Virus record (IMG/VR): IMGVR_UViG_3300025725_000026
Location: 1 to 61,010 of that record
Origin: a virus
Taxonomy: Duplodnaviria > Caudoviricetes
Length of the DNA: 61,010 bases
Strand: one strand, 5' to 3'
This document shows positions 1 to 51,661 of this stretch, one piece after another; position 1 is the first letter of the stretch; each line of letters starts with the position of its first letter. The translations under genes and the position numbers were made by a program. The notes beneath the pieces were generated by a model. The model was not told the DNA's origin, searched no databases, and saw only the letters and a program-made list of their open reading frames with translations.

Positions 1-99
1 ATGATCCTTCCGTCATTGTAGGAGCGATAGCTGCGTGACTTACCTAATTCTTGCCCTCGCTACATGGCGAATTTCAGCACTGCTTACAAAAGAAGCAGG
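1..99. repeat. Terminal overlap (copy 1) indicating a circular contig
   Basis: 1-99 is identical to 60912-61010 and ORFs continue across the join. Confidence 0.95.
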
Positions 100-340
100 G
101 CCGTTTCATATCTTTGAAAAACTGCGGGAGCGGTCTGGGATCACGCACGACGCCGACGGGCAGGTTCAGATGATCCCCTCTAAATTCTTCGCTGAATTGC
201 TTTCCTGCGTCTGGTGCGCATCGATATGGGTAGCTACTGGTTGGGTTGTCCTGTATGTGCTTGCGCCAGATGTTGCAACTATACTTGCGCTTCCTTTTGC
301 TTTGTCCACGGTTGCCATTTTGGTTGACCGCTTTTCTTGA
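35..340 (+). CDS. DUF1360-like small membrane protein
   Basis: LALATWRIS...GPFHIF...ELLSCVWCASIW pattern with hydrophobic helices; GTG start overlaps the TGA of the upstream GT gene. Confidence 0.7.
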   Translation: MTYLILALATWRISALLTKEAGPFHIFEKLRERSGITHDADGQVQMIPSKFFAELLSCVWCASIWVATGWVVLYVLAPDVATILALPFALSTVAILVDRFS

Positions 341-2195
341 CAATTCCCTTCTGATTCAATACTGTATCGATCACCCAGTAAACATCAATTTTCGATAGAT
401 TCTGGTGGCACGGCACATAGAGATGGGTGTGGGCAACGTGTGACGCCACCGGAAAATGACCTTCCCCGAGGTATCTGAAACTCTTGTACTGCTGTTCTTC
501 CATGGGAATGCAGGAGAAGAATTTGCGGCACTCGATAGAGGCTTCCAAAATATTCCGCATTGCCACATCTCTGGCTTCTTCAGATGCGAACTCGATCGGA
601 TATCCATGGGGAACCACTTCTTCGCCAGGACGTTCATCAAACCCGCCCAAGGCTGCCTTCATGAGAAGGAAATTCTCTCGCCGTTTTGAAACGTACTCAT
701 CGATGTGCTTCATCAAAGCAATGCCCAACACAGCTTGAAGGCTGCACATGCGCGCATTGAACCCGAAGTTGGGGAAGTGGAATTTATTCATGGGGTCGCT
801 TGATACGGACCCATGGGCTCTTATTGATCGGCACAGATTGGCTAGTTCTGGATCGTCGGTGACGATCGCTCCGCCCTCGCCAGTTGAAATTGTATGAGAC
901 GGAAAGAATGAAAAAGTGCCAAGCGTTCCAAGCGTGCCCGCGCGTTGGCCGTAGAATGAAGTTCCAAAAGACTCGCAATTGTGCACTAACACGTTGTTTG
1001 CAAAAAACTCATGGGTCGATTCTACGGTTAGATTGTATGTATCTACCCTTGCTTTTACAATCCCTGCAACAAAATTTAGACTTATTTGGATAAAATGCTT
1101 GGTATTCTTTTTTGCAATAATGACAAACCTTAGTAATCGATTTTCTTTTTTTCCAACTTTTCTTTCCGCCCTCAACTCTAATGTTTTTGAATGCAGGATT
1201 TCTGTGCCATTCTGCTGCTCCAACTCTTGCCAACTCAAGGTTTTTGAGCAATTTTTCAATCTTTCCGGGATCATTAATGTGTCTTGCAGCGTGCTCGGTA
1301 GAGTTGAGTAACTCAAGATTGGATACGTCATTATTAAGGGGATTCTTGTCTTTATGGTGGACATGAAATCCATTAGGTATTTCCCCAAAATTGTCAATCC
1401 ATATCTGAACATGAAGGGCGCGCGGAAAACCTTTTGGATCGTCTTTTGAGTGCGTGTGAAAATATACCCTTTTAGTTCGAAGAAGGGATTTTGGATATCT
1501 GATATATGTCTTTCCTCGATACACAATCGTTTCTCGTTCCATACATATATTATATCAGATACGTTTAGAACGTCAAGCCTTTTTGACCCCAGTTTTGTTA
1601 TAAACGGATGGTCAGGAGTTGCGGTTATTCCTAATTTTCTAATTACTTTTTTAGTACCTGTTTTCCAAGATCGAGTAACTCTTTCATATCCATTTCTTGT
1701 TAATACCAAATCTCCTTCTTTGATATCTTCTATGCCCTTGTCTCCTCTTATTGTTTTTATTTGCGTACCTTTTGCAAAACAGGCATCTTCTATATCCGTC
1801 CTATTGATCATTAGCCGACCCATTAGGTCTGTTCCAAAAATTATCCAATCTTCTGGAACATTCCTCAAATCCATCGTCCAGTCTTCCTTGATATCCGCGA
1901 ACTCGATGGGCAACCCGTTATATCGGACCGAGTTTGGCTGGGCAATGAAGGTCAGGGCGGGAACCACAACCGGTTTTATCCTGCCAGTAGCCTTCAATGC
2001 AGCCACGGCCACAGCATCCGCCATCGTGCCGTTAGAAACGGCGATGCAATGGTTGGCACCCACGTATTTAGCGACCGCATTCTCAAACTCGGCGATGTAT
2101 TCGCTTTGTCCGATCTTGCCAGCTTGTAGCGCATCGAACATCATCGGATATGTTTCTTCGGGAACGTTGACCGCAGCCAGAGATACTTTATACAT
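279..2195 (-). CDS. DegT/DnrJ/EryC1/StrS-family PLP enzyme (ColD/E1-like, His at the Schiff-base position), intein-containing
   Basis: EFENAVA, AVSNGT, VPALTFIA, IEDA|CES and FSFFPSHTISTGEGG motifs; ATG 2195 directly follows the upstream stop. Confidence 0.88.
   Translation of the reverse strand: MYKVSLAAVNVPEETYPMMFDALQAGKIGQSEYIAEFENAVAKYVGANHCIAVSNGTMADAVAVAALKATGRIKPVVVPALTFIAQPNSVRYNGLPIEFADIKEDWTMDLRNVPEDWIIFGTDLMGRLMINRTDIEDACFAKGTQIKTIRGDKGIEDIKEGDLVLTRNGYERVTRSWKTGTKKVIRKLGITATPDHPFITKLGSKRLDVLNVSDIIYVWNEKRLCIEERHISDIQNPFFELKGYIFTRTQKTIQKVFRAPFMFRYGLTILGKYLMDFMSTIKTRIPLIMTYPILSYSTLPSTLQDTLMIPERLKNCSKTLSWQELEQQNGTEILHSKTLELRAERKVGKKENRLLRFVIIAKKNTKHFIQISLNFVAGIVKARVDTYNLTVESTHEFFANNVLVHNCESFGTSFYGQRAGTLGTLGTFSFFPSHTISTGEGGAIVTDDPELANLCRSIRAHGSVSSDPMNKFHFPNFGFNARMCSLQAVLGIALMKHIDEYVSKRRENFLLMKAALGGFDERPGEEVVPHGYPIEFASEEARDVAMRNILEASIECRKFFSCIPMEEQQYKSFRYLGEGHFPVASHVAHTHLYVPCHQNLSKIDVYWVIDTVLNQKGIVKKSGQPKWQPWTKQKEAQV
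1009..1542 (-). CDS. HNH homing endonuclease nested out of frame inside the intein
   Basis: LHVQIW..NFGEIPNGFHVHHKDKNPLNNDVSNLELL..TEH HNH motif and C-terminal CxxC..FCCRDC zinc finger; own ATG and TGA. Confidence 0.88.
   Translation of the reverse strand: MERETIVYRGKTYIRYPKSLLRTKRVYFHTHSKDDPKGFPRALHVQIWIDNFGEIPNGFHVHHKDKNPLNNDVSNLELLNSTEHAARHINDPGKIEKLLKNLELARVGAAEWHRNPAFKNIRVEGGKKSWKKRKSITKVCHYCKKEYQAFYPNKSKFCCRDCKSKGRYIQSNRRIDP
1549..1576 (-). promoter_or_regulatory. Sigma70-type promoter inside the intein, upstream of the nested HNH
   Basis: Minus strand TTGACG-16 nt-TATAAT with TGn extension, then 6 nt to ATG 1542. Confidence 0.75.
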
Positions 2196-2196
2196 G

Positions 2197-2919
2197 TCAA
2201 AACCTACTTCCTGCCGTTGAGGCGTATTCGTCGGTCCGCCAGCACCCCATATGCCAGATCGGCTCCGTCCATTCCGCGCAATCCTGACCAAAACGCATAG
2301 GAACTGCAATGGTCGGACCCTCGTGTTCGTAATAACGATCGTTGCCCCACAACTCTGCTTGACCAGGTACCTTGGGATCGCAGGGCCTTATATCCCCGTA
2401 GGCATCCCAGAACCTACGGTGGTACATGTGAAATCCGATCGTACACATATAATGGCGAGCGCTTCTTTGCTTATCAAGTCTCCACCAGTGTAGGCCCTGG
2501 TTCAACACCAGATCTGCTGACACTTCTGAATACTTATCGCCGTTCCCCCAGAAAGCCAGACGGCCCATCCTTACCGACCCGATTTCGTCGTGTTCAAGCA
2601 GTAATCGAGCATCCGGGGTGACATCAATAACTCTCTGTGGCATGAAATCATCAAGCACGGTCAGCCATAGATCGCCACCATATCGGGCGCATGAATTCAC
2701 CATGGAAGAAAGGTTGTTGGTCACTTCAACGGTGGTCGGGAATTCCTTGGTGAGTCTAAGGTAATAATCGATATCTTCTTGTGGACTGCCCCCATCGGCA
2801 ATATGAAATCTCTTAGGACCCGCATAGCCAATCTTGCCGATCAGGGCTTGAATGGTCATGGTGGCATACCAAGGGCGTTTGTAGGTACAAATACCGATCG
2901 TGAGAGGCGGGTATTCCAT
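2197..2919 (-). CDS. GT2-family glycosyltransferase
   Basis: LTIGICTYKR, HIADGGS, VLDDF, WHMG; paralogous to 53962..54699. Confidence 0.75.
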   Translation of the reverse strand: MEYPPLTIGICTYKRPWYATMTIQALIGKIGYAGPKRFHIADGGSPQEDIDYYLRLTKEFPTTVEVTNNLSSMVNSCARYGGDLWLTVLDDFMPQRVIDVTPDARLLLEHDEIGSVRMGRLAFWGNGDKYSEVSADLVLNQGLHWWRLDKQRSARHYMCTIGFHMYHRRFWDAYGDIRPCDPKVPGQAELWGNDRYYEHEGPTIAVPMRFGQDCAEWTEPIWHMGCWRTDEYASTAGSRF

Positions 2920-3491
2920 TACGCCCTGACCTTCTTGTAGATAATCAGGCTCTTGAAGACCGATCTCTCGTACTCATATCTGTAGACCATATTGACTTCG
3001 ACTGCGCCCTTTATATCTTTCCATGCAGGCGAGTCTGCGCAGAATAACATCTGGCCGTTTTTTGCCATTCGTCTGGCCAGCAGGGCGATCGTGTCTGCAA
3101 TAGAGTTGCCCGGATATTCCGGATCCGCCAACTGGGAAGATACCTCGCCAAGATGAAATAGCGTGATGTAGTCAATCCTGGGGAGGAGTTGAGTTGTTAG
3201 CAAGTGTATGTCGCCAAAGTCGACGGCGTACTTAGTGTTCAGGATGGGATTTTGTATTGCAAGTTGGATATATGCGTCAACCTCTGCCGGCGAGAGCGAG
3301 ATGGCGCGCACGTAGACGTTCTTTTGTGAAGCCGCCCATCGACCAACCATGTGGTTCATTCCTGGCCCCATGTGGAAAATCACGGCAGGCGTAGGTCTTT
3401 CGCTTGTTTCCAGATACTCGATAAAATCTTGATCTGGACACGCTTCCGGGTTAAATTGCCACCCCGACGCTTCCGCAGGTATTGGTTTCAT
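2919..3491 (-). CDS. Hypothetical protein, possibly methyltransferase-like fold
   Basis: IFHMGPG motif-I-like segment and IDYITLFHL; translationally coupled within the cassette. Confidence 0.45.
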   Translation of the reverse strand: MKPIPAEASGWQFNPEACPDQDFIEYLETSERPTPAVIFHMGPGMNHMVGRWAASQKNVYVRAISLSPAEVDAYIQLAIQNPILNTKYAVDFGDIHLLTTQLLPRIDYITLFHLGEVSSQLADPEYPGNSIADTIALLARRMAKNGQMLFCADSPAWKDIKGAVEVNMVYRYEYERSVFKSLIIYKKVRA

Positions 3492-4162
3492 TGTTCGCTT
3501 GCCTTCCATAAAAATATGCCATTAATGGGCGCCCAGTATTCTTTTATCTTCTGGCGCGTAATTTCCTGGGTCGGATAAAGGTTCTGACTCTTATACATAC
3601 AGGCCGCTTCGATCCAGTTCTTGAGGCCCTCGGTTGAAACGGTTACGGGATATTTCGCCAGTCCCTCAACAGCCTGATCCAGCTTCTCTGGAACATATTC
3701 GATATAAGGAAAGTCGGTGTAGTAGGTCGTGGGAAGATGAAGAAGTTCGAGCGCCCGCCTGACGATGACATGATCGACGTGATCGCCGACAGCCAGAGGA
3801 CACATGAATTTGTCGCCCTCTTCATTGTTCAAGTAGATCATTTTTGAGATAGATTCAATTGTCCCCGTGTCTTGCGGATCAAGATGGGAGAATACGCCGC
3901 CATAGAGTTTGCTGCCATCCATTTTCTCTCGGTAGAGTGCGTCCAGATAACCGAAATGAACGGGCTTGGCGCCCAGTGATCTAACGGCCAAGAAATCTTC
4001 CTCTATTCGGGTTTCGAAATGCTCTTTGGGTACATCCTTGGCACATCCACACATGAAGGTCCAAACTTCGGACTGCACCCCCTCCATGCTGTCGTCAAAA
4101 ATCAAACCTCCGCACGAAAGAACGGCATCGTCTGGGTGGGCGGAGAGATAAATTTTCCTCAT
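3488..4162 (-). CDS. PIG-L/LmbE-family deacetylase
   Basis: SAHPDDAVLSCGG, RIEED, GDHVDH, YYTDFPY, YKSQ motifs. Confidence 0.88.
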   Translation of the reverse strand: MRKIYLSAHPDDAVLSCGGLIFDDSMEGVQSEVWTFMCGCAKDVPKEHFETRIEEDFLAVRSLGAKPVHFGYLDALYREKMDGSKLYGGVFSHLDPQDTGTIESISKMIYLNNEEGDKFMCPLAVGDHVDHVIVRRALELLHLPTTYYTDFPYIEYVPEKLDQAVEGLAKYPVTVSTEGLKNWIEAACMYKSQNLYPTQEITRQKIKEYWAPINGIFLWKASEQ

Positions 4163-4200
4163 GTAACTATTTTACCATAAGGCGGATGGTATAATCAATT
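4163..4200. promoter_or_regulatory. Back-to-back leaderless promoters
   Basis: Minus: TGGTAAAAT-6 nt-ATG 4162; plus: TGGTATAAT-5 nt-ATG 4201. Confidence 0.7.
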
Positions 4201-4485
4201 ATGGATTTTCCAATCCGTTGCCAATTCTGTGAAAATGAGGTTTGGGTAGACCTCGAAGTCTACAGGATAATCTTTGAAGGGGTTTATCATATAGAAGTCT
4301 ATCGATGTGACGTATGTGGATCGGATATAAACTTCTTTGTCTGTACTTCTTCTTTGGATGATGCAATGCACAAACTATTCCAACTGAACCCAGCCAAGCC
4401 ACAATTCCAATATTTGTTTCGCAAAACACTCAAGAAAGCGCTGGGAGTGAGGACAAAATATGGCCAGAGCCAGCATAACGACTAA
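4201..4485 (+). CDS. Zinc-ribbon hypothetical protein
   Basis: CQFC and CDVC pairs. Confidence 0.6.
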   Translation: MDFPIRCQFCENEVWVDLEVYRIIFEGVYHIEVYRCDVCGSDINFFVCTSSLDDAMHKLFQLNPAKPQFQYLFRKTLKKALGVRTKYGQSQHND

Positions 4486-5677
4486 ACTATCTCTTGATCG
4501 ATTCGCCCAGATCATCGGGCTTAATCCGATGGCATTCAATGGCCTGTCGTCCGAGTTCTTTCGCAACAATGTTTGCGGGGATATATTCTTTCAATGGGAT
4601 TGGCAACACTCCGATCGCGTAGGTCGGGAAACGATTGCTCAGGCAATTCAGGCTGCCGAAATGGAAATGGAGGCCGAGGCCGGCTTCTATTTGATGCCAA
4701 CTTGGACCACCGAAGAACGTATTGATTATCCCAAGCCCGGGATGCCCGGTGTGTTTGGTCTGGATGGTTTGAACACACGTGGCTTGGGAAAGAGCGTCGA
4801 GGCGAAGCATGCGTTCATGCTCTCGGGGGGCATAAGGGAAAAGACTCTATTGGAGATGGCGTCAGCGATTGTGAGATCCGACGCAGATGGCGACGGCTAT
4901 ACCGAACTATGCACAGTCACATCTGCGGTCACATTCACGGATATCAACGAAGTCAGAATATATTTCACCGGTTATGATGGTGCCGATAACTACGAGATTC
5001 GACCCGCAAAGGTTGCAATCTCGGGCGGATTTGCAACCATCACCTTCAAGGCATGGCAAGTGCCGGCAGTCATTCAACTCGAACGCCTGGATGCTGCTCC
5101 ATTGGATGGCGACGTTGCGGCCAGTTACGAGACCACCGTCGATGTCTATCGCGTGCGCAACGATCCATCCACCCAACTGCAGTTCATGTGGGAAAACGGA
5201 GGCGCCGATTGCTGCGGAACCTGCGTAGCTTGCCAACTTTCAACTCAGGCCGGCTGTTTCCACTCACGCGACCCTCGCTTGGGAATAATTGTTCCAACGT
5301 CGGCGTCATGGAATATCACCAATCAAGAATTTGACGGTTCGACATGGAGCGCATGTAGAGATCCGGAACAAGTGCGCCTATGGTACTACTCGGGCTGGAA
5401 AGACGACACCGTGGCCCGTCCCTACGTCGAGATGTCGGCCTACTGGGAGTTCGCTGTCGCTGTGTTTGCGGTATCCAAGTTCGAGCGTGCAGTCTGCGGA
5501 TGTTCAAACGTGAATCAGCTGGTTGAAAAATGGAGACGCGACGCCGCATTTGAGTCAATGTCAGAGGGGGGATTTAAGGTCACTGCAGAGTTAATGAGCA
5601 ACAAGTTGGGGACGAGTCTCGGAGCTCTTTATGCCTACAAGCAAATACATCGAAATGGTATCCGCGTAATAAAGTAG
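4460..5677 (+). CDS. Putative head-tail connector/neck protein
   Basis: Position before tail genes; IAQAIQAAE..EAGFY and VRLWYYSGW resemble adaptor motifs. Confidence 0.5.
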   Translation: MARASITTKLSLDRFAQIIGLNPMAFNGLSSEFFRNNVCGDIFFQWDWQHSDRVGRETIAQAIQAAEMEMEAEAGFYLMPTWTTEERIDYPKPGMPGVFGLDGLNTRGLGKSVEAKHAFMLSGGIREKTLLEMASAIVRSDADGDGYTELCTVTSAVTFTDINEVRIYFTGYDGADNYEIRPAKVAISGGFATITFKAWQVPAVIQLERLDAAPLDGDVAASYETTVDVYRVRNDPSTQLQFMWENGGADCCGTCVACQLSTQAGCFHSRDPRLGIIVPTSASWNITNQEFDGSTWSACRDPEQVRLWYYSGWKDDTVARPYVEMSAYWEFAVAVFAVSKFERAVCGCSNVNQLVEKWRRDAAFESMSEGGFKVTAELMSNKLGTSLGALYAYKQIHRNGIRVIK

Positions 5678-5745: not shown

Positions 5746-6219
5746 ATGAATAGTATAGCACTAAACAAAAGGGCGTTGTTAAGATTTTGGGTTCGAGTTG
5801 ACAAAAGAGGTGAAGGCGATTGCTGGTTATGGATCGGATGTAAACAGACCCGTGGATACGGATCATTTGCAATTAGGGGTAAAGGAATAAGTGCCCATAG
5901 ATTTTCTTGGAAAATACACTTTGGAGATATTCCAGACGGAATGGTGGTTTGCCATAAGTGCGATAATCCACCCTGTGTAAATCCAAATCATTTATTCCTT
6001 GGAACGCAAGCAGAAAATCAACACGATAAGAGATTGAAAGGAAGATCTGCGCGTGGAGAAGGAAACAATAAGGCCAAGCTAACTGAGAGCAATGTGAAGG
6101 AAATAAGAAAGTTAATTGATCTTGGGTTATCCTCACGAAACATTGCCAAAGGTTTTGGGGTTCGCCATGCAGCAATATTGGATATAAAGAGCGGAAAGAA
6201 TTGGTCTTGGCTCAAATAG
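5746..6219 (+). CDS. Free-standing HNH homing endonuclease
   Basis: RFWVRVDK..CWLWIG..GYG..AHRFSW..VCHKCDNPPCVNPNHL; C-terminal HTH-like AKLTES region. Confidence 0.92.
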   Translation: MNSIALNKRALLRFWVRVDKRGEGDCWLWIGCKQTRGYGSFAIRGKGISAHRFSWKIHFGDIPDGMVVCHKCDNPPCVNPNHLFLGTQAENQHDKRLKGRSARGEGNNKAKLTESNVKEIRKLIDLGLSSRNIAKGFGVRHAAILDIKSGKNWSWLK

Positions 6220-8855: not shown

Positions 8856-9374
8856 ATGGATCCTACCATCGAAGAACGCAAGCTGTTGAAGCGCGAGTAC
8901 GATAGGATTCGTTATATTAAAAACATAGAAGAGATAACCATAAGGCATAAAAAGTATAGAGATGAGGACGAACATAAAGTAAAAATGGCTGAATATGGCA
9001 AAGAGTGGGCAATCCTACATCCCGATGCTATAAAATTGAAACTAAAAAGATATTATGAGAGACACCCAGATAAAATAATGGAGAAAAATAAAAAGCGTTC
9101 TGCAAGTGGCAGGTTAAGAGAATGTCAAAGAAATAGTCACCTGAAGATTTTTTACGGGCTGTCCCTTGATAAGTACAACGAAATGTATGAAGCGCAAGAA
9201 GGAAAGTGCTTGATCTGTGGAGAGCATAAGGATAAATTAATGGTAGACCATGATCACAAAACAAATAAAGTTCGCGGTTTGCTTTGTACGCATTGCAATA
9301 CCGGAATTGGTTTTCTAAAAGACAACGTTAATAACCTAAAAAAGGCAATTGATTATTTAGAGAAAAGAGGATAA
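8856..9374 (+). CDS. Endonuclease VII-family homing endonuclease
   Basis: YGLSL..Y..MYEAQEGKCLICG..VDHDHKTNKVRGLLCTHCNTGIG. Confidence 0.92.
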   Translation: MDPTIEERKLLKREYDRIRYIKNIEEITIRHKKYRDEDEHKVKMAEYGKEWAILHPDAIKLKLKRYYERHPDKIMEKNKKRSASGRLRECQRNSHLKIFYGLSLDKYNEMYEAQEGKCLICGEHKDKLMVDHDHKTNKVRGLLCTHCNTGIGFLKDNVNNLKKAIDYLEKRG

Positions 9375-23845: not shown

Positions 23846-24571
23846 ATGGTAGATATTATGAGCGATTCTAAAAAATGCACAAAATGCAAGAAACTTCTTC
23901 CGCTTTCTAATTTTCACTTTGATAAAAGTAGGCCGGATGGACATTGTTATATCTGCGTTTATTGTAGGTGTCCGGGACACGCAGAAAACGAAAAGAAACG
24001 CGAGGCGAAACTTGCCCCAACCCGATTTTGTACCATGTGTGGAATTGAGAAATTAAGAGAGGAGTTTGGAAATGACAAAAGGGTTATCGGCGGCAGAAAG
24101 GTAAGGTGCAGGGCATGTTATGCAAAATTAATGTTGGCTGAAAGAAAAGCGCATCCAGAGAAAGCCCGAGAGTTAAGTCGAAAATTTAATAGGCTCCACC
24201 GAGATATTAGATGCAATTACAATCATAGATATCACAGCGAACACAAAGAAGAAGAAAGTGAGCGCTCTAGGAAGTACCGTCACGAAAACCTTGAGTCGGT
24301 TTATGAGAGAAACAGAAATCGGCGCGCTAGGGAGTTGTCTGCTCCTGGTGATGGAGTAACCCGCCACCAATGGGCGCATATAGTAAGCCTTTTTGGGAGT
24401 AAGTGTTTGTATCCGGGCTGTGGAAGCACAAAAGTTTCAATGGATCATATAGTTCCTCTTATTTTGGGCGGGGCGCATGATACTTATAATATCCAACCAC
24501 TATGCAGGAGTCATAATTCTGGTAAGCACACAAAGATAGTTGATTATCGTTTTGTGGTAGATTGGACATGA
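23846..24571 (+). CDS. Free-standing HNH endonuclease
   Basis: Repeated CxxC fingers; CLYPGC..MDHIVPL..GG...NIQPLCRSHNSGK. Confidence 0.88.
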   Translation: MVDIMSDSKKCTKCKKLLPLSNFHFDKSRPDGHCYICVYCRCPGHAENEKKREAKLAPTRFCTMCGIEKLREEFGNDKRVIGGRKVRCRACYAKLMLAERKAHPEKARELSRKFNRLHRDIRCNYNHRYHSEHKEEESERSRKYRHENLESVYERNRNRRARELSAPGDGVTRHQWAHIVSLFGSKCLYPGCGSTKVSMDHIVPLILGGAHDTYNIQPLCRSHNSGKHTKIVDYRFVVDWT

Positions 24572-37317: not shown

Positions 37318-37770
37318 ATGGAAATAGCGAAACGATGTACCCAATGTTTAATATCAAAATCCCTTATCGATTATTATAAAGACGCCAGATCTTTAGATGG
37401 GAGGGCGGCTGAATGCAAAAAATGCCACAATATAAAAACTTCCAAGTGGAGAAAAAACAATCCGTTGAAGTCAAATAAAATCTCAAGAGACGCATACCGC
37501 AAAAAACCCTTAAGTAAGAGAAGAGAGATTTGGCTAAAAAGAGAGCACGGAATAACCCTAGAACATTACGAGAAATTATATAAAGAACAGGACGGAAAAT
37601 GCGCCATCTGCAAGAAGGTTCAGGACAAGTCTATGAATGTAGATCACAATCATATAACAGGGAAAATTAGAGGCTTATTGTGCAACAAATGCAATAGGGG
37701 AATAGGCTATTTGGACGATAGTTACGTTCTTGTCGAAAACGCTGCATTATATCTGAGGAAAAATGAATAA
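37318..37770 (+). CDS. Endonuclease VII-family homing endonuclease
   Basis: HGITLEHY..EQDGKCAIC..VDHNHITGKIRGLLCNKCNRGIG; leaderless start. Confidence 0.92.
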   Translation: MEIAKRCTQCLISKSLIDYYKDARSLDGRAAECKKCHNIKTSKWRKNNPLKSNKISRDAYRKKPLSKRREIWLKREHGITLEHYEKLYKEQDGKCAICKKVQDKSMNVDHNHITGKIRGLLCNKCNRGIGYLDDSYVLVENAALYLRKNE

Positions 37771-39895: not shown

Positions 39896-40769
39896 TTACA
39901 TGCTGTGTGATGGTTGGCGGTCTCGCTGTCAGAATGAGGAATGCGACCACAAATACCAGCGCACGGATGGCATAACTATCTGCCCGGACTGCGGACTTCC
40001 TCGCGAGAGATGCGGCGCAAAAGCTGTGCCAGGCTATCGATATTGCTGCCACCACGGCGGCCCAAATCCTAAGAACAATTTCTACGGTCTCGGAGGTGCG
40101 GTCTTGAAATCAGGAAAAACTTCCCAGTTTGATTTGACGCGACTTGCGTCTACTTATATCCAGATGAAAACCGACGGCCGGTTGCTCACCAACCGCATGT
40201 CCATCGAAATGATCCGTACCAGGATCGTCGAACTCGCCGGCCGCATTGATACGAATCAGGCTCCGGATCGCTTGGCGAACTTATCCAAGTTATGGCGAGA
40301 CTACACGGCCGCCAAGGGAACGATGGACGAAATGCCCCTCAAGTTGGCGCTGGACGATGAGTTCGAACGTGCCTACCACGACTACGCGGCATGGAAACAA
40401 ATGTTCGACGCCGTGGATCTCGACCGTAAACTCGTGGAGAGCGAAGTCAAGATCATCAAGGACATGAACGCCGTCCTGACTGCTGAAGATGCCTACGAAC
40501 TGACTGCTCAGTTACTGGCAGCTATCATCAATACGACAAATTCGATAGAAAATGTCCCTGATAAGGTAAAGTTAGACTTTTTGAAGAGGATTCAATATGA
40601 GTTTACCCGAATTGTTGGCGAGAGGGTTAAGCAAGGGACTCCAAGAGGCGGCGCAGAAGATAACGATGCCGAAGCCGGTGAACTGGATCGAACACGAATT
40701 CTTGATCCCGGAGACCCGGAACAATCCCCATTTGAGGGGGAGGATGATCCTGGAGCCATACCAGCGTGA
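39888..40769 (+). CDS. Putative terminase small subunit
   Basis: Upstream of TerL; Cys fingers with CCHHGG and helical C-terminus. Confidence 0.65.
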   Translation: MPNYMLCDGWRSRCQNEECDHKYQRTDGITICPDCGLPRERCGAKAVPGYRYCCHHGGPNPKNNFYGLGGAVLKSGKTSQFDLTRLASTYIQMKTDGRLLTNRMSIEMIRTRIVELAGRIDTNQAPDRLANLSKLWRDYTAAKGTMDEMPLKLALDDEFERAYHDYAAWKQMFDAVDLDRKLVESEVKIIKDMNAVLTAEDAYELTAQLLAAIINTTNSIENVPDKVKLDFLKRIQYEFTRIVGERVKQGTPRGGAEDNDAEAGELDRTRILDPGDPEQSPFEGEDDPGAIPA

Positions 40770-43188
40770 TGTGCTGAACGAAGCCCTGACGCCAGACGAA
40801 AATGGTAGGTACAAGTATTCGATCATCGTCTGGTCGGATATAAAAAAGTCGGCCAAGTGCGTCCATCCAGACACTCTTTTTGCAATGTCCGATGGAGCGC
40901 AAAAAAGCGCCAAAGATATCATGGCAAGGGACGTCGTTATTTCTTTCGACGACTCTGGAATTGTGTCGCACAATAAAGTAGTGGCCGTTCAGGGGCAAGT
41001 CCCAGAGGCTATGTACCATATAACTACGTCGAGGGGACGAGAGTTGGTGGTTACCGGGGAGCATCCCGTAAAAGTTAATGGGAACGATATTCCTCCCAGC
41101 CAAACTCGTTTTTTCAAGAGAAGCATTAGGAAGCCCATCTGGATAAAAGCCAAGGATCTTGTTGTTGGGGATAGAGTAGTAATCGCTCTTGATTGGCGTC
41201 CGTTTGGAGATAGTGACAGAGACGAAATGTATCTTCTTGGGGCATATATCGGAGATGGGGGGCAAGGAACAATAACGACCGCCGACGAAGAAATAAGGCA
41301 GGCATTTGAAGCCAGATTCAAGTTGATGCCAAAGGGTAATTATGGATATAGGATAAATGGCGCCTCTGATTGGTTGAGAGAACATGGACTTCTTTTGGGC
41401 GGTAGTGGGAACTGGAAAAACCACCTTAATTCTTATACCAAAAGAGTTCCGCATCGTGTCTATACTTCTGGTTGGCAAGGAGTTGCTTATTTTTTGTCTG
41501 GATATTTCGATACAGATGGTTTTGTTTCCCAAACGAAGAGAAAACAACCATGTGTTGGGTGGGGAAGTGTAAGCAAAGATTTATTGAGAGATTGCCAAAC
41601 GCTACTGGCTTCCCTCGGAATTAATGCAACCCTATTTCGGCACGACAGCAAACTCAATGGGAAGAGATTTGAGGCGTATAAACTTTGCGTGTATGGTCGA
41701 GAGCAGTTTGAATTGCTTTCTGAATTGTTGGTCCCCAAGGTAAAACATAAGAGAGATAAGATATTGGAGTGGAAGACAATATTGAACAAAAGACTCCCAA
41801 AAAAATCCAACGGAATTAGTATATATTCATCGGACAAAATTGTTTCGATTGAAAACACAGAACCCATCAGTTCAATTGCCATTGAGGTTGAAAAAACGCA
41901 CACTCATATTACCAACGGAATCGTCACCCACAATAGCACCATCGCTGCCGCCGTTAATCTGTACCGTGCGTCCTTTACGGAATTCGGGGAATTTTATGTG
42001 GTCGCCAACGACTTGAAACAAGCGGACTCCCGGGTGAACCACTACCTGCGGCGCGCTATCGAGCTCAACCCAAAGCTCAGGGAAAGATATAAGATGCAGG
42101 GATACCGCATCACCACGCCTAGCGGTGCCTACATCGAGGCTATTCCTATTGACCCGTCGGGCGAAGCCGGCACCAATGCGGACCAGGTGACGTTCTCAGA
42201 ACTTTGGGGAGCCAACGAGGACGCCAAGCAGAAAATGTGGAGTGAAATGACGATCCCTCCTCAGAAACACGGCCATGCCTTCCGTTGGATCGAGAGCTAT
42301 GCTGGCTTTACCGAGGAATCCGACTTACTCTACTCGCTCTATGAACTCGGGGTGAAACAGGGTGAGCAACTCTGGCCTGACCGTTTATATAACGTCACAG
42401 AGGGCCAACCCACTCCGCTCGAAGTCTATGTCAATCGGGCTGCCGGCATGCTTTGCCTATGGAATACGCAACCTCGTTGTCCGTGGCACACACGCAGTTA
42501 TTATTCTGGTGAAGAGAAGATCATGCCTCCCAACCAGTTCGCCCGCATTCATCGCAATCAGTGGGTGAGCTCAACCGAAACATTTTTGCCAATGGAGTGG
42601 ATTTACGCGTGCGCGCGCAAGCAGGAAGAATGGCCGGCGATTGATTTGGCCCATCAAGCTATGGTTCTTTCGGCCGATGCGGCGACAAGCAACGATAACT
42701 TTGGATTGTGGTTGGGATGCCGACATCCAACGCTTCCGGGCGAGATCTTGACCATTTATGCCCAGAAATGGGTTCCAGGCGCTAATGGCAAGATCGATTT
42801 CCAAGGAACGGAAGAACACCCTGGTCCAGAGTTGATGATAAGAAGATTGATAAAAACTCATAACATCGTCCAGTTGTGCTTTGATCCTTACCAGTTATTT
42901 GACATGATGAACCGGTTGAGGAAGGAAGGATTGCAGGTCTGGTTCAAGGAATTTAACCAAGGCACTGACCGATTGTTGGCAGACAGTCAATTGCGCGATT
43001 TGATTCGAGACCGTCGTTTTTGGCATAGAGGTGAGCCCGACTTGATTGAGCATTTCCAGAACGCAAACGCGAAGTTGGACGAGCAGGATTCTAAGGTCCG
43101 TATCGTCAAGCGCGTAGATCGGTTGAAGATCGATCTGGCGGTGGCCGCCAGCATGGGGAGCCATACTCTGCTGAAACTTAACTTATAG
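40597..43188 (+). CDS. terL: Terminase large subunit, intein-containing
   Basis: LEPYQ, Walker A KKSAK|ST, VANDLKQA, FDPYQ, KIDLAVA. Confidence 0.92.
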   Translation: MSLPELLARGLSKGLQEAAQKITMPKPVNWIEHEFLIPETRNNPHLRGRMILEPYQRDVLNEALTPDENGRYKYSIIVWSDIKKSAKCVHPDTLFAMSDGAQKSAKDIMARDVVISFDDSGIVSHNKVVAVQGQVPEAMYHITTSRGRELVVTGEHPVKVNGNDIPPSQTRFFKRSIRKPIWIKAKDLVVGDRVVIALDWRPFGDSDRDEMYLLGAYIGDGGQGTITTADEEIRQAFEARFKLMPKGNYGYRINGASDWLREHGLLLGGSGNWKNHLNSYTKRVPHRVYTSGWQGVAYFLSGYFDTDGFVSQTKRKQPCVGWGSVSKDLLRDCQTLLASLGINATLFRHDSKLNGKRFEAYKLCVYGREQFELLSELLVPKVKHKRDKILEWKTILNKRLPKKSNGISIYSSDKIVSIENTEPISSIAIEVEKTHTHITNGIVTHNSTIAAAVNLYRASFTEFGEFYVVANDLKQADSRVNHYLRRAIELNPKLRERYKMQGYRITTPSGAYIEAIPIDPSGEAGTNADQVTFSELWGANEDAKQKMWSEMTIPPQKHGHAFRWIESYAGFTEESDLLYSLYELGVKQGEQLWPDRLYNVTEGQPTPLEVYVNRAAGMLCLWNTQPRCPWHTRSYYSGEEKIMPPNQFARIHRNQWVSSTETFLPMEWIYACARKQEEWPAIDLAHQAMVLSADAATSNDNFGLWLGCRHPTLPGEILTIYAQKWVPGANGKIDFQGTEEHPGPELMIRRLIKTHNIVQLCFDPYQLFDMMNRLRKEGLQVWFKEFNQGTDRLLADSQLRDLIRDRRFWHRGEPDLIEHFQNANAKLDEQDSKVRIVKRVDRLKIDLAVAASMGSHTLLKLNL
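40858..41934 (+). mobile_element. Intein (359 aa) with in-frame LAGLIDADG endonuclease in the TerL P-loop
   Basis: Cys1 CVHPDT, TGEHP, YLLGAYIGDG and FLSGYFDTDG, IVTHN followed by Ser+1. Confidence 0.93.
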
Positions 43189-51051: not shown

Positions 51052-51190
51052 ATATTGTCTTTTTCTTCCTTTGAGTGTATAATGTGACCCATGAGGTATT
51101 TGGTTTGATCGACCAGAAAAGAAGGCCGCTTCCCCTCCCCTCGTGGGCCACATTATGCCCTTCAAGGAAGCAATAAGGACAGAGCGAAGC

Positions 51191-51661
51191 ATGGTACAAA
51201 TCTCATTGAATGGATCAAATGAAGTAGCAATCATTGATGATTGCGATTTTGCGATTATCTCCCCATATAGATGGAATGTAAACTTTGGAAGATATGCTGG
51301 GGCTTGGATAAACGGAAAACAAGTTCTATTGCACAGATTCGTTATGGGGGCAAAAGAAGGAGACGAGGTAGATCATATTCACAACGAGAATACATTTGAT
51401 TGTAGACACGAAAACTTGCGTCTTTGTACTCATAGCCAGAACATAGCAAATGATGGACCAAAGTCAAATAACAAGTTGGGCGTGAAGGGTGTCGACTTGG
51501 TAAAAACGACGGGGAGATTTAGGGCAACTATCCGAAAGGATTACAAGAAAATTCATATCGGTATATTCGGTACCCTGAAGGAAGCGGCCGAAGCCTACAA
51601 TCTGGCCTCGCTTAAGTATTTCGGCGAATTCGGTTATCAGAATGATCTGGAGGCGTTATGA
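51191..51661 (+). CDS. HNH-AP2 homing endonuclease
   Basis: AIIDDCDF, LHRFVM..VDHI..ENLRLCT..QN, GVKGV..FRATI..HIGIF..EAAEAYN. Confidence 0.88.
   Translation: MVQISLNGSNEVAIIDDCDFAIISPYRWNVNFGRYAGAWINGKQVLLHRFVMGAKEGDEVDHIHNENTFDCRHENLRLCTHSQNIANDGPKSNNKLGVKGVDLVKTTGRFRATIRKDYKKIHIGIFGTLKEAAEAYNLASLKYFGEFGYQNDLEAL

What the first reader, a model, noticed from the sequence alone, without database searches (positions are those of the whole stretch)
978..1781. Intein carrying a self-expressed HNH endonuclease gene in a different reading frame
Seen: the intein frame is open for all 268 codons with intact splicing blocks, but its middle ~165 aa has no recognisable endonuclease motif. The same nucleotides read in the +2/-1 frame (1542-1009) give a 177-aa HNH plus zinc-finger protein with its own ATG and TGA. 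Established: inteins normally carry the endonuclease in frame, as this genome's TerL intein does. Inference: an HNH gene is overprinted on a mini-intein, which splices out the junk translation while the HNH supplies mobility. Two stop-free frames over 534 nt of AT-rich DNA suggest selection. I do not know whether this architecture has been described.
Basis: partly seen in the sequence, partly recalled or inferred. Interest (0 to 1): 0.92.

Follow-up and report, generated by a model that had tools for sequence, protein, structure and literature searches.

The report
Intein with out-of-frame HNH gene
A self-splicing protein insert (intein) in a phage sugar-modifying gene carries its mobility nuclease as a separate gene in a shifted reading frame of the same DNA; the layout is real and under selection, but this kind of intein was first described in 2025.

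Summary
Window 978-1781 (minus strand) is a class-1 intein in a DegT-family gene. It is open for 268 codons. A 177-aa HNH_3 endonuclease ORF (1542-1009) lies in its +2 frame.

It is not an assembly error. Contigs of three metagenome runs are identical. In a survey of 126 non-duplicate relatives of this HNH, 105 sit inside an intein in the same +2 frame with no stop in the intein frame. None is in frame. All 13 free-standing homologs have stops in that frame.

Permuting synonymous codons keeps the window's intein frame open in 3 of 5000 trials. In close relatives, substitutions pile up at HNH third codon positions. So the HNH protein is under purifying selection, and the intein-frame linker is only kept open.

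AlphaFold agrees: HNH pLDDT is 90, and linker residues 98-242 are below 50. A near-consensus promoter ends 6 nt before the ATG.

The kind is already published (Gosselin et al. 2025; Phillips et al. 2026), for other nucleases. This scan has also found HNH versions on other DNA. New here are the I-HmuI-like HNH family and the rare non-terminase host gene. Verdict: new member of a known kind, moderate interest.

The parts
1782..2195 (-). N-extein of a DegT/DnrJ/EryC1-family PLP sugar enzyme, ending ...DIEDA
   Evidence: Pfam DegT_DnrJ_EryC1 E 2.6e-59 in two stretches. It aligns to perosamine synthetase 3bn1. Intein-free alleles L156 and L157 read IEDACE(A/S)FG without interruption.
978..1781 (-). 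Class-1 intein, 268 codons: Cys1, block B TPDH, blocks F/G ...THEFFANNVLVHN, followed by +1 Cys
   Evidence: The AF2 model of the ends matches mini-inteins (gp41-1 6qaz E 7e-7; Mtu RecA; Ssp DnaB; prob 1.00).
282..977 (-). C-extein (CESFG...). The Schiff-base Lys position is His (codon 894-896)
1009..1542 (-). Nested HNH_3 (I-HmuI-like) endonuclease ORF in the +2 frame: 177 aa, ATG 1542-1540, TGA 1011-1009, with a C-terminal CxxC...CxxC zinc ribbon
   Evidence: All 11 invariant columns of a 21-sequence alignment are present (Y27 H44 G53 H62 H63 D65 N71 N75 H84 H88 W112). AF2 pLDDT 90.1. Top PDB fold match is I-HmuI 1u3e, E 0.016, prob 0.95.
1549..1576 (-). Promoter-like site TTGACG-16-(TG)TATAAT. 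The -10 ends 6 nt before the HNH ATG, and there is no Shine-Dalgarno, which suggests a leaderless start
   Evidence: It is the best site in 1-4500 (11 of 12 plus TG). It is one of 4 sites at 11 of 12 or better in the whole 61-kb genome on both strands. A shuffled intein holds such a site in 1.8% of 5000 trials. Colinear copies occur in L010 (9/12) and L011 (10/12), and a 12/12 site in phiCDHM19.
1056..1490 (-). Intein-frame linker (intein residues 98-242), kept open but without a confident fold
   Evidence: AF2 pLDDT below 50 for residues 98-242. Pfam finds no domain there. In relatives, the second codon position of this frame (= HNH third position) changes fastest.
1491..1542 (-). Stretch of true dual coding: the last strands of the N-terminal splicing domain (intein residues 80-97) overlap the HNH N-terminal hairpin (MERETIVYRGKTY...)
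   Evidence: Both models are confident here. M1, I6, Y8 and G10 are nearly invariant in HNH homologs.
1009..1055 (-). Second dual-coded stretch: intein block F strand (residues 243-258) overlaps the HNH C-terminal helix and stop

Best explanation
This is a two-gene mobile element written in one stretch of DNA. A class-1 intein interrupts a phage DegT-family sugar enzyme at the conserved PLP-site motif IEDA|CESFG. The intein's two splicing halves are joined by about 145 residues that are only an open, unstructured spacer. The same nucleotides, read in the +2 frame, encode a complete I-HmuI-like HNH endonuclease with a zinc ribbon.

Shown here: both frames are open against chance. The layout, always in the +2 frame, is shared by most relatives of this HNH. 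Purifying selection acts on the HNH frame, while the spacer frame is only kept free of stops. Intein-free alleles of the host gene exist.

Inferred: (1) The precursor is translated through the spacer, and the intein splices itself out, restoring the enzyme. (2) The HNH is made separately, most likely from the near-consensus promoter inside the intein, as a leaderless mRNA starting at its ATG. This would uncouple nuclease expression from the host operon. (3) The HNH nicks or cuts intein-free alleles near GAAGATGCC|TGCGAG, and repair copies the intein plus the HNH gene. (4) The element came from the much larger pool of terminase (TerL) inteins with the same nested HNH, and jumped into DegT at a look-alike site.
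For: Anatomy.

Chance: the intein frame stays open in 3 of 5000 synonymous permutations.

Controls: over the whole HNH ORF, the intein frame has 0 stops in 12 of 12 embedded loci first examined, against 1-14 stops in 7 of 7 free-standing homologs. The third frame has 11-36 stops in the embedded ones.

Survey: of 126 non-duplicate HNH ORFs, 87 have both intein ends at offset +2 in one open frame. Another 18 have one end detected at offset +2 and 0 stops. Four are fractured or decayed, 3 have no intein hit but 0 stops, 13 are free-standing with stops, and 1 is other (CL2). None is in frame.

Intein hallmarks in the 86 contiguous relatives: Cys1 in 84, terminal Asn in 86, and +1 Cys in 81 or Ser in 4.

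Selection: in 5 independent pairs at 90-98% aa identity, substitutions at HNH codon positions 1/2/3 number 30/27/126. The synonymous:non-synonymous ratio is 127:56 in the HNH frame and 26:157 in the intein frame. Over all 14 pairs the position counts are 260/219/514. For the window against L010, nucleotide identity by HNH position is .63/.67/.44, and aa identity is 53% (HNH frame) against 31% (intein frame).

Folds: HNH pLDDT 90.1. In the intein frame the ends score 70-87 and residues 98-242 score below 50. The ends match mini-inteins. The top HNH match is I-HmuI.

Start signals. The Met start is nearly invariant in 21 homologs.

Mobility: intein-free alleles L156 (68% identity) and L157 (59%) are uninterrupted at the site. 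L010 has a related intein plus HNH at the same DegT profile position 146. Of 74 N-exteins scanned, 34, 28 and 2 match Terminase_3, Terminase_6N and GpA_ATPase. The target sites are alike: GAAGATGCC|TGCGAG here against GATGATGCG|TGTGAT in phiCDHM19, 11 of 15 positions.
Against: No experiment or read-level RNA evidence shows splicing, an HNH transcript, or HNH protein for this phage. The only RNA-library contig (X4) covers 818-1034, and it may be DNA carry-over.

The selection test comes from relatives. The window's nearest relative is only 53% identical, so this copy could be freshly inactive.

Promoter-like sites are not universal. Of 11 embedded loci inspected, only 4 have a site at 10 of 12 or better within 70 nt upstream. 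Some have a Shine-Dalgarno instead. The promoter overlaps conserved intein codons, so its conservation is confounded.

The window's HNH has one zinc ribbon where many relatives have two.

The Foldseek match to I-HmuI is weak (E 0.016, TM 0.29).

The two AF2 alignments differ in depth (21 against 6 rows), which alone lowers confidence for the intein frame.

The survey is biased. Its search patterns and its intein HMMs were built from window-like sequences, and the metagenome scan kept 80 of 177 relatives.

The HNH tree is poorly supported, so the direction TerL to DegT is not established.
Confidence: 0.8

Rival explanations
1. Sequencing or assembly artefact: a canonical in-frame HNH intein was thrown out of frame by two compensating indel errors.
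For: The two frame changes would have to fall exactly at the borders of the HNH domain, which is where an in-frame version would be joined.
Against: Contigs from three runs are identical with no gaps. The same +2 offset occurs in 105 of 126 relatives from unrelated assemblies, and none is in frame. The intein frame would be open by chance in only 3 of 5000 permutations. A stop lies 3 codons before a conserved ATG.
Confidence: 0.01
2. The layout is real, but in this phage the HNH is a silent relic. The intein persists only because it must splice, and the element no longer moves.
For: There is no expression evidence. The nearest relative is only 53% identical. The HNH is shorter than many relatives, with one zinc ribbon. 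The host gene is an accessory gene. Homing-cycle theory predicts decay after fixation (recalled).
Against: All 11 invariant HNH residues, the ATG and the stop are intact. An 11/12 promoter sits at the right distance. A 177-codon ORF in 37% GC DNA, with 22 stops in the third frame, is unlikely to survive without selection. Intein-free alleles exist in the two closest viral relatives, so targets are available.
Confidence: 0.1
3. The HNH is translated from the host operon mRNA by internal initiation, or by re-initiation or coupling, rather than from its own promoter.
For: Several relatives have a Shine-Dalgarno plus ATG or GTG and no good promoter: L007 has GGAGGG-6-ATG, and L001 has AAGGTG-7-GTG. 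Phillips et al. 2026 (section 11 read) also report Shine-Dalgarno motifs before their +2 ORF.
Against: The window has no Shine-Dalgarno before the ATG. It does have a TTGACG-16-TGnTATAAT site ending 6 nt upstream. L010 and L011 keep the same geometry.
Confidence: 0.2
4. The HNH works for the phage (for example as a terminase-associated nuclease) rather than as a selfish homing enzyme.
For: Most hosts are TerL. Seven of 7 free-standing phage homologs lie next to terL or terS. HNH proteins that assist terminases are known (recalled, Kala et al. 2014; not read here).
Against: Here and in L010 the host is a sugar enzyme, not TerL. The window's own TerL has a different, LAGLIDADG intein. The family is HNH_3/I-HmuI-like, typical of homing enzymes. 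Distribution is patchy across three TerL families and DegT, always at a conserved active-site motif.
Confidence: 0.05
5. Programmed ribosomal frameshifting fuses the HNH to the splicing domains, giving a canonical bifunctional intein in some precursors.
For: None directly. It is only that the HNH occupies the position of a normal endonuclease domain.
Against: Two shifts would be needed, into the HNH frame and back before block F, which overlaps the HNH 3' end. The start Met is nearly invariant, and a stop lies just upstream. I ran no dedicated search for slippery sites.
Confidence: 0.02

Closest known systems
Non-canonical actinobacteriophage inteins with the homing endonuclease in a separate reading frame or strand (Gosselin, Arsenault, Gogarten, bioRxiv 10.1101/2025.01.02.630785; abstract, sections 8 and 15, and passages read)
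   Same: The splicing frame is open but structureless between the splicing blocks. A complete endonuclease ORF lies there 'in frame 3 relative to the intein', which is the +2 offset. Many are in TerL. The proposed origin is invasion of an intein by a free-standing endonuclease gene.
   Different: Their same-strand case is an endonuclease VII-like nuclease (match to 1E7D). They list HNH only as in-frame. They call the layouts rare. They mention no promoter or start signals (0 occurrences of 'promoter' and 'start codon'). Here the nuclease is HNH_3/I-HmuI-like, the host is a DegT sugar enzyme in a peat-metagenome phage, and the layout is the majority state of the family (105 of 126).
Cyanobacterial dnaX intein with an out-of-frame (+2 ORF) LAGLIDADG endonuclease (Phillips, DeSimone, Gogarten, bioRxiv 10.64898/2026.09.14.751524; abstract and sections 11 and 17 read)
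   Same: The offset is +2. The in-frame middle has low confidence and the +2 ORF has a confident fold. Purifying selection acts on the +2 ORF only. No in-frame relatives are known.
   Different: The nuclease is LAGLIDADG, the host is a cellular gene, and Shine-Dalgarno motifs rather than a promoter or leaderless start are reported.
ShiLan-type insertions: an out-of-frame 'hidden' HNH inside phage DNA methylase genes (Arsenault et al., Genes 2025, PMC11855218; abstract and sections 18 and 19 read)
   Same: An HNH ORF lies out of frame inside a host gene whose own frame stays open. Leaderless initiation is proposed.
   Different: Those insertions have no splicing domains and are thought to stay in the protein. 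Here intact intein blocks flank the HNH.
Fractured genes: split inteins with a free-standing endonuclease gene between the halves (Dassa et al. 2009, PMC2677866; passages read)
   Same: A separately expressed endonuclease gene sits between the N and C splicing halves. The best structural match of the splicing domain is gp41-1, one of their inteins. Relatives of this element in Vibrio phages 1.245.O and 1.238.B are fractured in just this way.
   Different: In the window the intein is contiguous: one ORF with no stop. Their nucleases were GIY-YIG or Vsr-like.
I-HmuI, the intron-encoded HNH nicking homing endonuclease of phage SPO1 (PDB 1u3e)
   Same: It is the top structural match over 166 of 177 residues. 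The domain order is the same: an N-terminal beta hairpin region, the HNH core, long helices, and a C-terminal DNA-binding module.
   Different: The match is weak (E 0.016, 16% identity). The C-terminal module here is a zinc ribbon (YacG/FCS-like partial matches). The carrier is an intein, not an intron.

Membership tests
Intein (class 1, Hint fold) | Nucleophile (Cys/Ser) at position 1 and a TxxH block B | tested here: met
   C1, T55 and H58 are present, and they are invariant in the 6-row alignment A2.
Intein (class 1, Hint fold) | C-terminal His-Asn followed by Cys/Ser/Thr at +1 | tested here: met
   ...VLVHN|CESFG. In the 86 contiguous relatives, terminal Asn occurs in 86, and +1 Cys in 81 or Ser in 4.
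Intein (class 1, Hint fold) | Hint/splicing-domain fold and profile match | tested here: met
   Intein_splicing scores 38.8 against a 35.8 cut-off, and Hint_2 scores 31.2 against 28.4. The AF2 ends match gp41-1, Mtu RecA and Ssp DnaB mini-inteins at prob 1.00.
Intein (class 1, Hint fold) | In-frame insertion at a conserved host site, with intein-free alleles contiguous across it | tested here: met
   The exteins align to 3bn1 across EDAAEAVG. L156 and L157 read IEDACE(A/S)FG uninterrupted.
Intein (class 1, Hint fold) | Protein splicing activity | not testable with these tools
   This needs expression of the precursor.
HNH_3 / I-HmuI-like homing endonuclease | HNH_3 profile match above the curated cut-off | tested here: met
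   51.7 bits against 24.8, E 6.7e-14. PHROG 15471 matches at 5.5e-25.
HNH_3 / I-HmuI-like homing endonuclease | Conserved His-Me finger residues | tested here: met
   H62, H63, D65, N71, N75, H84 and H88 are invariant in 21 sequences and present in the window. Which residue does what is recalled, not tested.
HNH_3 / I-HmuI-like homing endonuclease | Overall fold like I-HmuI | tested here: inconclusive
   The top hit is 1u3e, but at E 0.016, prob 0.95, TM 0.29.
HNH_3 / I-HmuI-like homing endonuclease | Site-specific nicking or cleavage of the empty allele, and homing | not testable with these tools
   Only indirect evidence exists: the patchy distribution and the empty alleles.
Intein with the homing endonuclease in a separate reading frame (2025-2026 preprints) | The splicing frame is open through the nuclease region but encodes no recognisable domain | tested here: met
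Intein with the homing endonuclease in a separate reading frame (2025-2026 preprints) | A complete nuclease ORF in another frame between blocks B and F, under purifying selection | tested here: met
   Selection was shown in relatives, not in the window's own clade.
Intein with the homing endonuclease in a separate reading frame (2025-2026 preprints) | Same nuclease family as the described members (endonuclease VII-like, LAGLIDADG, Vsr-like) | tested here: not met
   Pfam gives HNH_3 only, with no Endonuclease_7 hit at E up to 1. A tblastn with the TJE1 homolog listed no SEA-PHAGES actinophage among the 60 rows shown of 190 records.
Fractured gene / naturally split intein (Dassa 2009) | The host gene and intein are broken into two ORFs around the nuclease gene | tested here: not met
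   The window has one ORF of 638 codons. The feature is met in relatives L006 and L009, and probably in L024.

The most novel reading that the evidence does not exclude
The nested, out-of-frame layout may not be a short-lived intermediate. It may be the long-lived, possibly ancestral state of a whole I-HmuI-like HNH lineage. On this reading the element is a stable two-gene mobile unit. The intein is the harmless carrier. The HNH is a separately transcribed driver, here from an internal promoter as a leaderless mRNA. The terL-adjacent free-standing HNH genes and the fractured TerL genes of Vibrio and Lactobacillus phages would be its derivatives. The unit would have jumped from the TerL nuclease motif (xHDDx|CDx) into a PLP sugar enzyme, because that enzyme's IEDA|CE site mimics the target at the DNA level.
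Probability: 0.35. Interest if true: 0.6.

Novelty: new member of a known kind. Interest (0 to 1): 0.42.

Why it matters
It adds a fourth nuclease type (HNH_3, I-HmuI-like) to the inteins whose homing endonuclease is a separate overlapping gene. It is also the first host gene I saw outside replication and packaging functions.

In this HNH family the layout is the rule, not a rarity: 105 of 126 relatives have it, always in the +2 frame.

This bears on an old question, how inteins acquired endonucleases ("splicing first, then invasion by a free-standing gene"). Contiguous nested, fractured and free-standing states of one family can now be compared side by side.

Practically, such genes are mis-annotated. 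The HNH may be called alone, or the host gene may be called "HNH/hint protein". The approximately 145-residue tolerated spacer also shows how much unrelated sequence a natural intein may carry (splicing is inferred, not shown).

Tried and rejected
**DNA-level search.** A search of the intein against 50,697 phage records gave one 75-nt hit only. Relatives had to be found at the protein level.

So the genomic context of the 23 database homologs P0003-P0025 is unknown. They are used only for alignment A1.

**RNA evidence.** The one RNA-library contig (X4, 217 nt, 818-1034) crosses the intein/C-extein junction unspliced. It cannot show a start, a strand or even transcription. The lack of RNA cover elsewhere means nothing.

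**Run X5.** I make no claim from it.

**Foldseek on the HNH model.** No PDB match reached E 0.001 or better. I did not run the VIA-align libraries.

**HNH tree.** This was a FastTree of 126 rows; 30 of 121 inner branches were starred. Free-standing members are scattered: 11 changes, of which at least 3 are forced by starred branches. No starred clade holds the window. So the tree cannot say whether embedded or free-standing is ancestral, nor prove a TerL-to-DegT jump.

**Promoter conservation.** It is partial. Of 11 loci inspected, sites at 10 of 12 or better within 70 nt upstream occur in the window, L011, L001 and L003. L013, L008 and L006 have no site at 9 of 12 or better.

**Rows dropped.** In the survey, 22 of the 155 sequences screened (154 fetched loci plus the window; L019, the window's own copy, set aside) had HNH hits weaker than E 1e-10 or shorter than 90 profile positions. 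They were dropped, as were 7 exact duplicates. In the Pfam host count, 12 of 86 contiguous loci were left out: the records from the fetch of an annotated region, and N-exteins under 150 aa.

**Category D.** One of the 3 loci with 0 stops but no intein hit (L104) turned out to be a TerL intein by Pfam. So my intein HMMs under-detect.

**Literature searches.** 'intein + HNH + different reading frame' gave 0 papers. 'intein + alternative reading frame + endonuclease' gave 1 irrelevant paper. 'intein + nested + HNH + terminase large subunit' gave 3 papers, and PMC5418858 was checked by passages and is irrelevant. I found no paper describing this HNH_3 family out of frame in inteins. Subscription journals and the preprints' supplements were not searchable.

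**Programmed frameshifting.** I rejected it by reasoning only. I did no slippery-site search.

**Not used.** Complex prediction, the search of protein representatives and the ESM Atlas.
Full report
**What is there.** The window is a complete 61,010-bp virus record with terminal repeats. Its DNA is held by peat-metagenome runs. On the minus strand, 2195-282 is one 638-codon ORF. Pfam reads it as a DegT/DnrJ/EryC1 PLP sugar enzyme (E 2.6e-59, in two stretches), interrupted by an intein (Intein_splicing and Hint_2, both above their cut-offs).

The intein is 1781-978, 268 codons with no stop. It has Cys1, block B TPDH, the end ...THEFFANNVLVHN, and Cys at +1. Its exteins align to perosamine synthetase 3bn1 across the PLP-site motif EDAAEAVG. 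Two related viral contigs (68% and 59% identical in the C-extein) carry the same gene, reading IEDACE(A/S)FG without any insert. So the boundaries are exact, and empty alleles exist.

Inside the intein, 1542-1009 in the +2 frame is a 177-codon ORF with ATG and TGA. It matches HNH_3 (E 6.7e-14) and a PHROG HNH family (5.5e-25). A TAA lies three codons before the ATG.

**Is it more than chance or error?** The third frame of the same stretch has 22 stops. Permuting synonymous HNH codons leaves the intein frame open in 3 of 5000 trials. Resampling from the ORF's own usage leaves it open in 16 of 5000.

Contigs of three runs reproduce 700-2100 without a difference or a gap. Two may be the source. 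One, from another sample and study, covers the stretch in three pieces. These are contigs, not reads.

**Relatives.** A tblastn of both frames against phage records hit the same places in the terminase large-subunit (TerL) genes of Acinetobacter phage Highwayman, Clostridium phages phiCDHM19 and phiCD119, Tetrasphaera phage TJE1, a Rhodobacteraceae phage and an unverified gut contig. In each, the HNH match lies +2 from the intein match.

I then collected 9 IMG/VR loci, 80 metagenome loci (the best 80 of 177 relatives) and 50 genome loci. I classified them with HMMs of the HNH and of the two intein ends.

Of 133 loci with a good HNH hit, 126 are non-duplicate:
- 87 have both intein ends at offset +2 in one open frame, with 0 stops.
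- 18 have one end detected at offset +2, with 0 stops. Many of these lie at contig ends.
- 4 are fractured or decayed.
- 3 show no intein hit but 0 stops. One of them, L104, is a TerL intein by Pfam.
- 13 are free-standing, with stops in that frame.
- 1 is Lactobacillus phage CL2 (see below).

None has the HNH in frame.

In the first set, the control was clean. The intein frame had 0 stops in 12 of 12 embedded loci, and 1-14 stops in 7 of 7 free-standing homologs.

The 86 contiguous relatives have Cys1 in 84, terminal Asn in 86, and +1 Cys in 81 or Ser in 4. Of 74 N-exteins scanned, 34, 28 and 2 match Terminase_3, Terminase_6N and GpA_ATPase. The insertion is near the TerL C-terminus, at an xHDDx|C(D/I)x type motif.

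Only the window and L010 sit in DegT genes, and both sit at Pfam profile position 146.

This survey is biased towards window-like sequences, because its patterns and HMMs were built from them.

**Which frame is selected?** In 14 independent pairs of embedded relatives, substitutions at HNH codon positions 1/2/3 number 260/219/514. In the five pairs at 90-98% aa identity they number 30/27/126. There the synonymous:non-synonymous ratio is 127:56 in the HNH frame, but 26:157 in the intein frame.

The HNH third position is the second position of the intein frame. So the spacer's amino acids are free to change, provided no stop appears.

For the window against its nearest relative L010, the same order holds: nucleotide identity .63/.67/.44, and aa identity 53% against 31%. 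No close relative of the window itself was found. For this copy, selection is therefore inferred from the family, from the intact invariant residues, and from the open frames.

**Folds.** With a 21-row alignment, the HNH protein folds at mean pLDDT 90.1. Its best PDB match is the nicking homing endonuclease I-HmuI (1u3e; E 0.016, prob 0.95, 166 columns). The C-terminal part gives partial matches to small zinc fingers.

With a 6-row alignment, the intein frame gives pLDDT 70-87 for residues 1-97 and 243-268, and below 50 for residues 98-242. The confident ends match mini-inteins (gp41-1, Mtu RecA, Ssp DnaB; prob 1.00). The different alignment depths are a caveat.

About 17 codons at the 5' end and 15 at the 3' end of the HNH ORF overlap confidently folded intein strands. 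These are stretches of real dual coding.

**Expression signals.** The best sigma-70-like site in 1-4500 is TTGACG-16-(TG)TATAAT, at 1576-1549 on the minus strand. It ends 6 nt before the HNH ATG, and there is no Shine-Dalgarno.

Only 4 sites reach 11 of 12 in the whole genome on both strands. A shuffled intein holds one in 1.8% of 5000 trials.

L010 and L011 keep the same geometry, at 9/12 and 10/12. phiCDHM19 has a perfect 12/12 site followed by AAGGAG and GTG. Other relatives have only a Shine-Dalgarno, or nothing clear.

The site overlaps conserved intein codons, so conservation alone cannot prove function. My reading is a leaderless transcript from an internal promoter. It is inferred, about 60% likely given that the gene is expressed. 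Internal initiation on the operon mRNA is the alternative.

**How it most likely works.** The shown and inferred steps are set out in Best explanation. The precursor is translated through the spacer, and the intein splices. The HNH is made separately and nicks or cuts empty alleles. Repair then copies the whole unit.

The DegT site (GAAGATGCC|TGCGAG) matches TerL sites of relatives at 11 of 15 positions. This would explain an ectopic jump. The tree places the window near TerL-borne HNHs (L011, L033) and L010, but without strong support.

**Comparison with what is known.** The kind is published.
- Gosselin, Arsenault and Gogarten (bioRxiv 10.1101/2025.01.02.630785; sections 8 and 15 and passages read) describe actinophage inteins with an endonuclease VII-like nuclease 'in frame 3', and antisense LAGLIDADG and Vsr-like nucleases. 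They call them rare, and list HNH only as in-frame.
- Phillips, DeSimone and Gogarten (bioRxiv 10.64898/2026.09.14.751524; sections 11 and 17 read) show a +2-frame LAGLIDADG in the cyanobacterial dnaX intein, using the same kinds of evidence as here.
- Arsenault et al. (PMC11855218; sections 18 and 19 read) describe out-of-frame HNH insertions without splicing domains.
- Dassa et al. 2009 (PMC2677866; passages read) describe the fractured version, and the invasion model.

This scan has also met out-of-frame HNH genes in TerL and polymerase inteins on other DNA. My survey agrees with those notes.

New here are three things. First, this nuclease family in this layout does not appear in the papers I could search. 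Second, the host is a sugar-enzyme gene. Third, within the family the nested state is the norm. Hence: new member of a known kind, moderate interest.

Noticed in passing
window 894-896 (-), host residue 434: The DegT-family host has His where the Schiff-base Lys sits in aminotransferases (FSFFPSH here, FSFFGNK in 3bn1). ColD/E1-type 3-dehydratases are among the PDB matches. The intein-free relatives L156 and L157 share the His.
   Followed up: partly
L006 (Vibrio phage 1.245.O) 2100-3491; L009 (1.238.B): TerL is fractured. The N-part plus N-intein runs into a stop at 2639. A 244-aa HNH ORF lies in the +2 frame. A separate ORF in the TerL frame encodes the C-intein (...VVVHN|C) plus the C-extein. 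It looks like a natural split intein derived from the nested layout. The intein frame has 14 stops over the HNH ORF.
   Followed up: partly
L024 (Lactobacillus phage CL2) 1108-2170: The annotated TerL ends with an N-intein and a stop. The next gene is the 'HNH endonuclease'. An unannotated stretch in another frame encodes ...FIVHN|CMDATRYF..., a C-intein plus the TerL C-extein. This is either a fractured TerL or a frameshift in the record.
   Followed up: partly
L005 (Clostridium phage phiCD119) 715-2592: Compared with phiCDHM19, where TerL is one 799-codon ORF, the 2005 record has TerL annotated as truncated, and both the intein frame and the HNH frame are broken. This may be sequencing errors or real decay.
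   Followed up: no
L002, L020-L023, L025 (BP10, PAE1, FBPa53, EauM-23, SN1, Poludnitsa): Free-standing homologs of this HNH lie directly beside terL (between terL and portal) or before terS. This is the neighbourhood of the intein insertion site.
   Followed up: partly
window 5746-6216, 8856-9371, 23846-24568, 37318-37767, 51143-51658, 40597-43185: The genome is rich in homing-type genes. It has free-standing HNH_3, two Endonuclease_7, an HNH, and an HNH_3+AP2 gene, plus a canonical in-frame LAGLIDADG intein in TerL.
   Followed up: partly
window 32876 (+), 23512 and 23477 (-): These are the only other promoter-like sites at 11 of 12 in the genome.
   Followed up: no
L033 1458-1600; two members of alignment A3: Some TerL genes with the nested-HNH intein carry a second intein upstream (Intein_splicing and LAGLIDADG_3 hits in the N-extein).
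   Followed up: no
L107 (Corynebacterium sp. chromosome), L127 (Nostoc MAG), L119/L132 (archaeal MAG contigs): The same nested layout occurs on contigs assigned to cellular genomes. These are presumably prophages or viral contigs binned with them.
   Followed up: no
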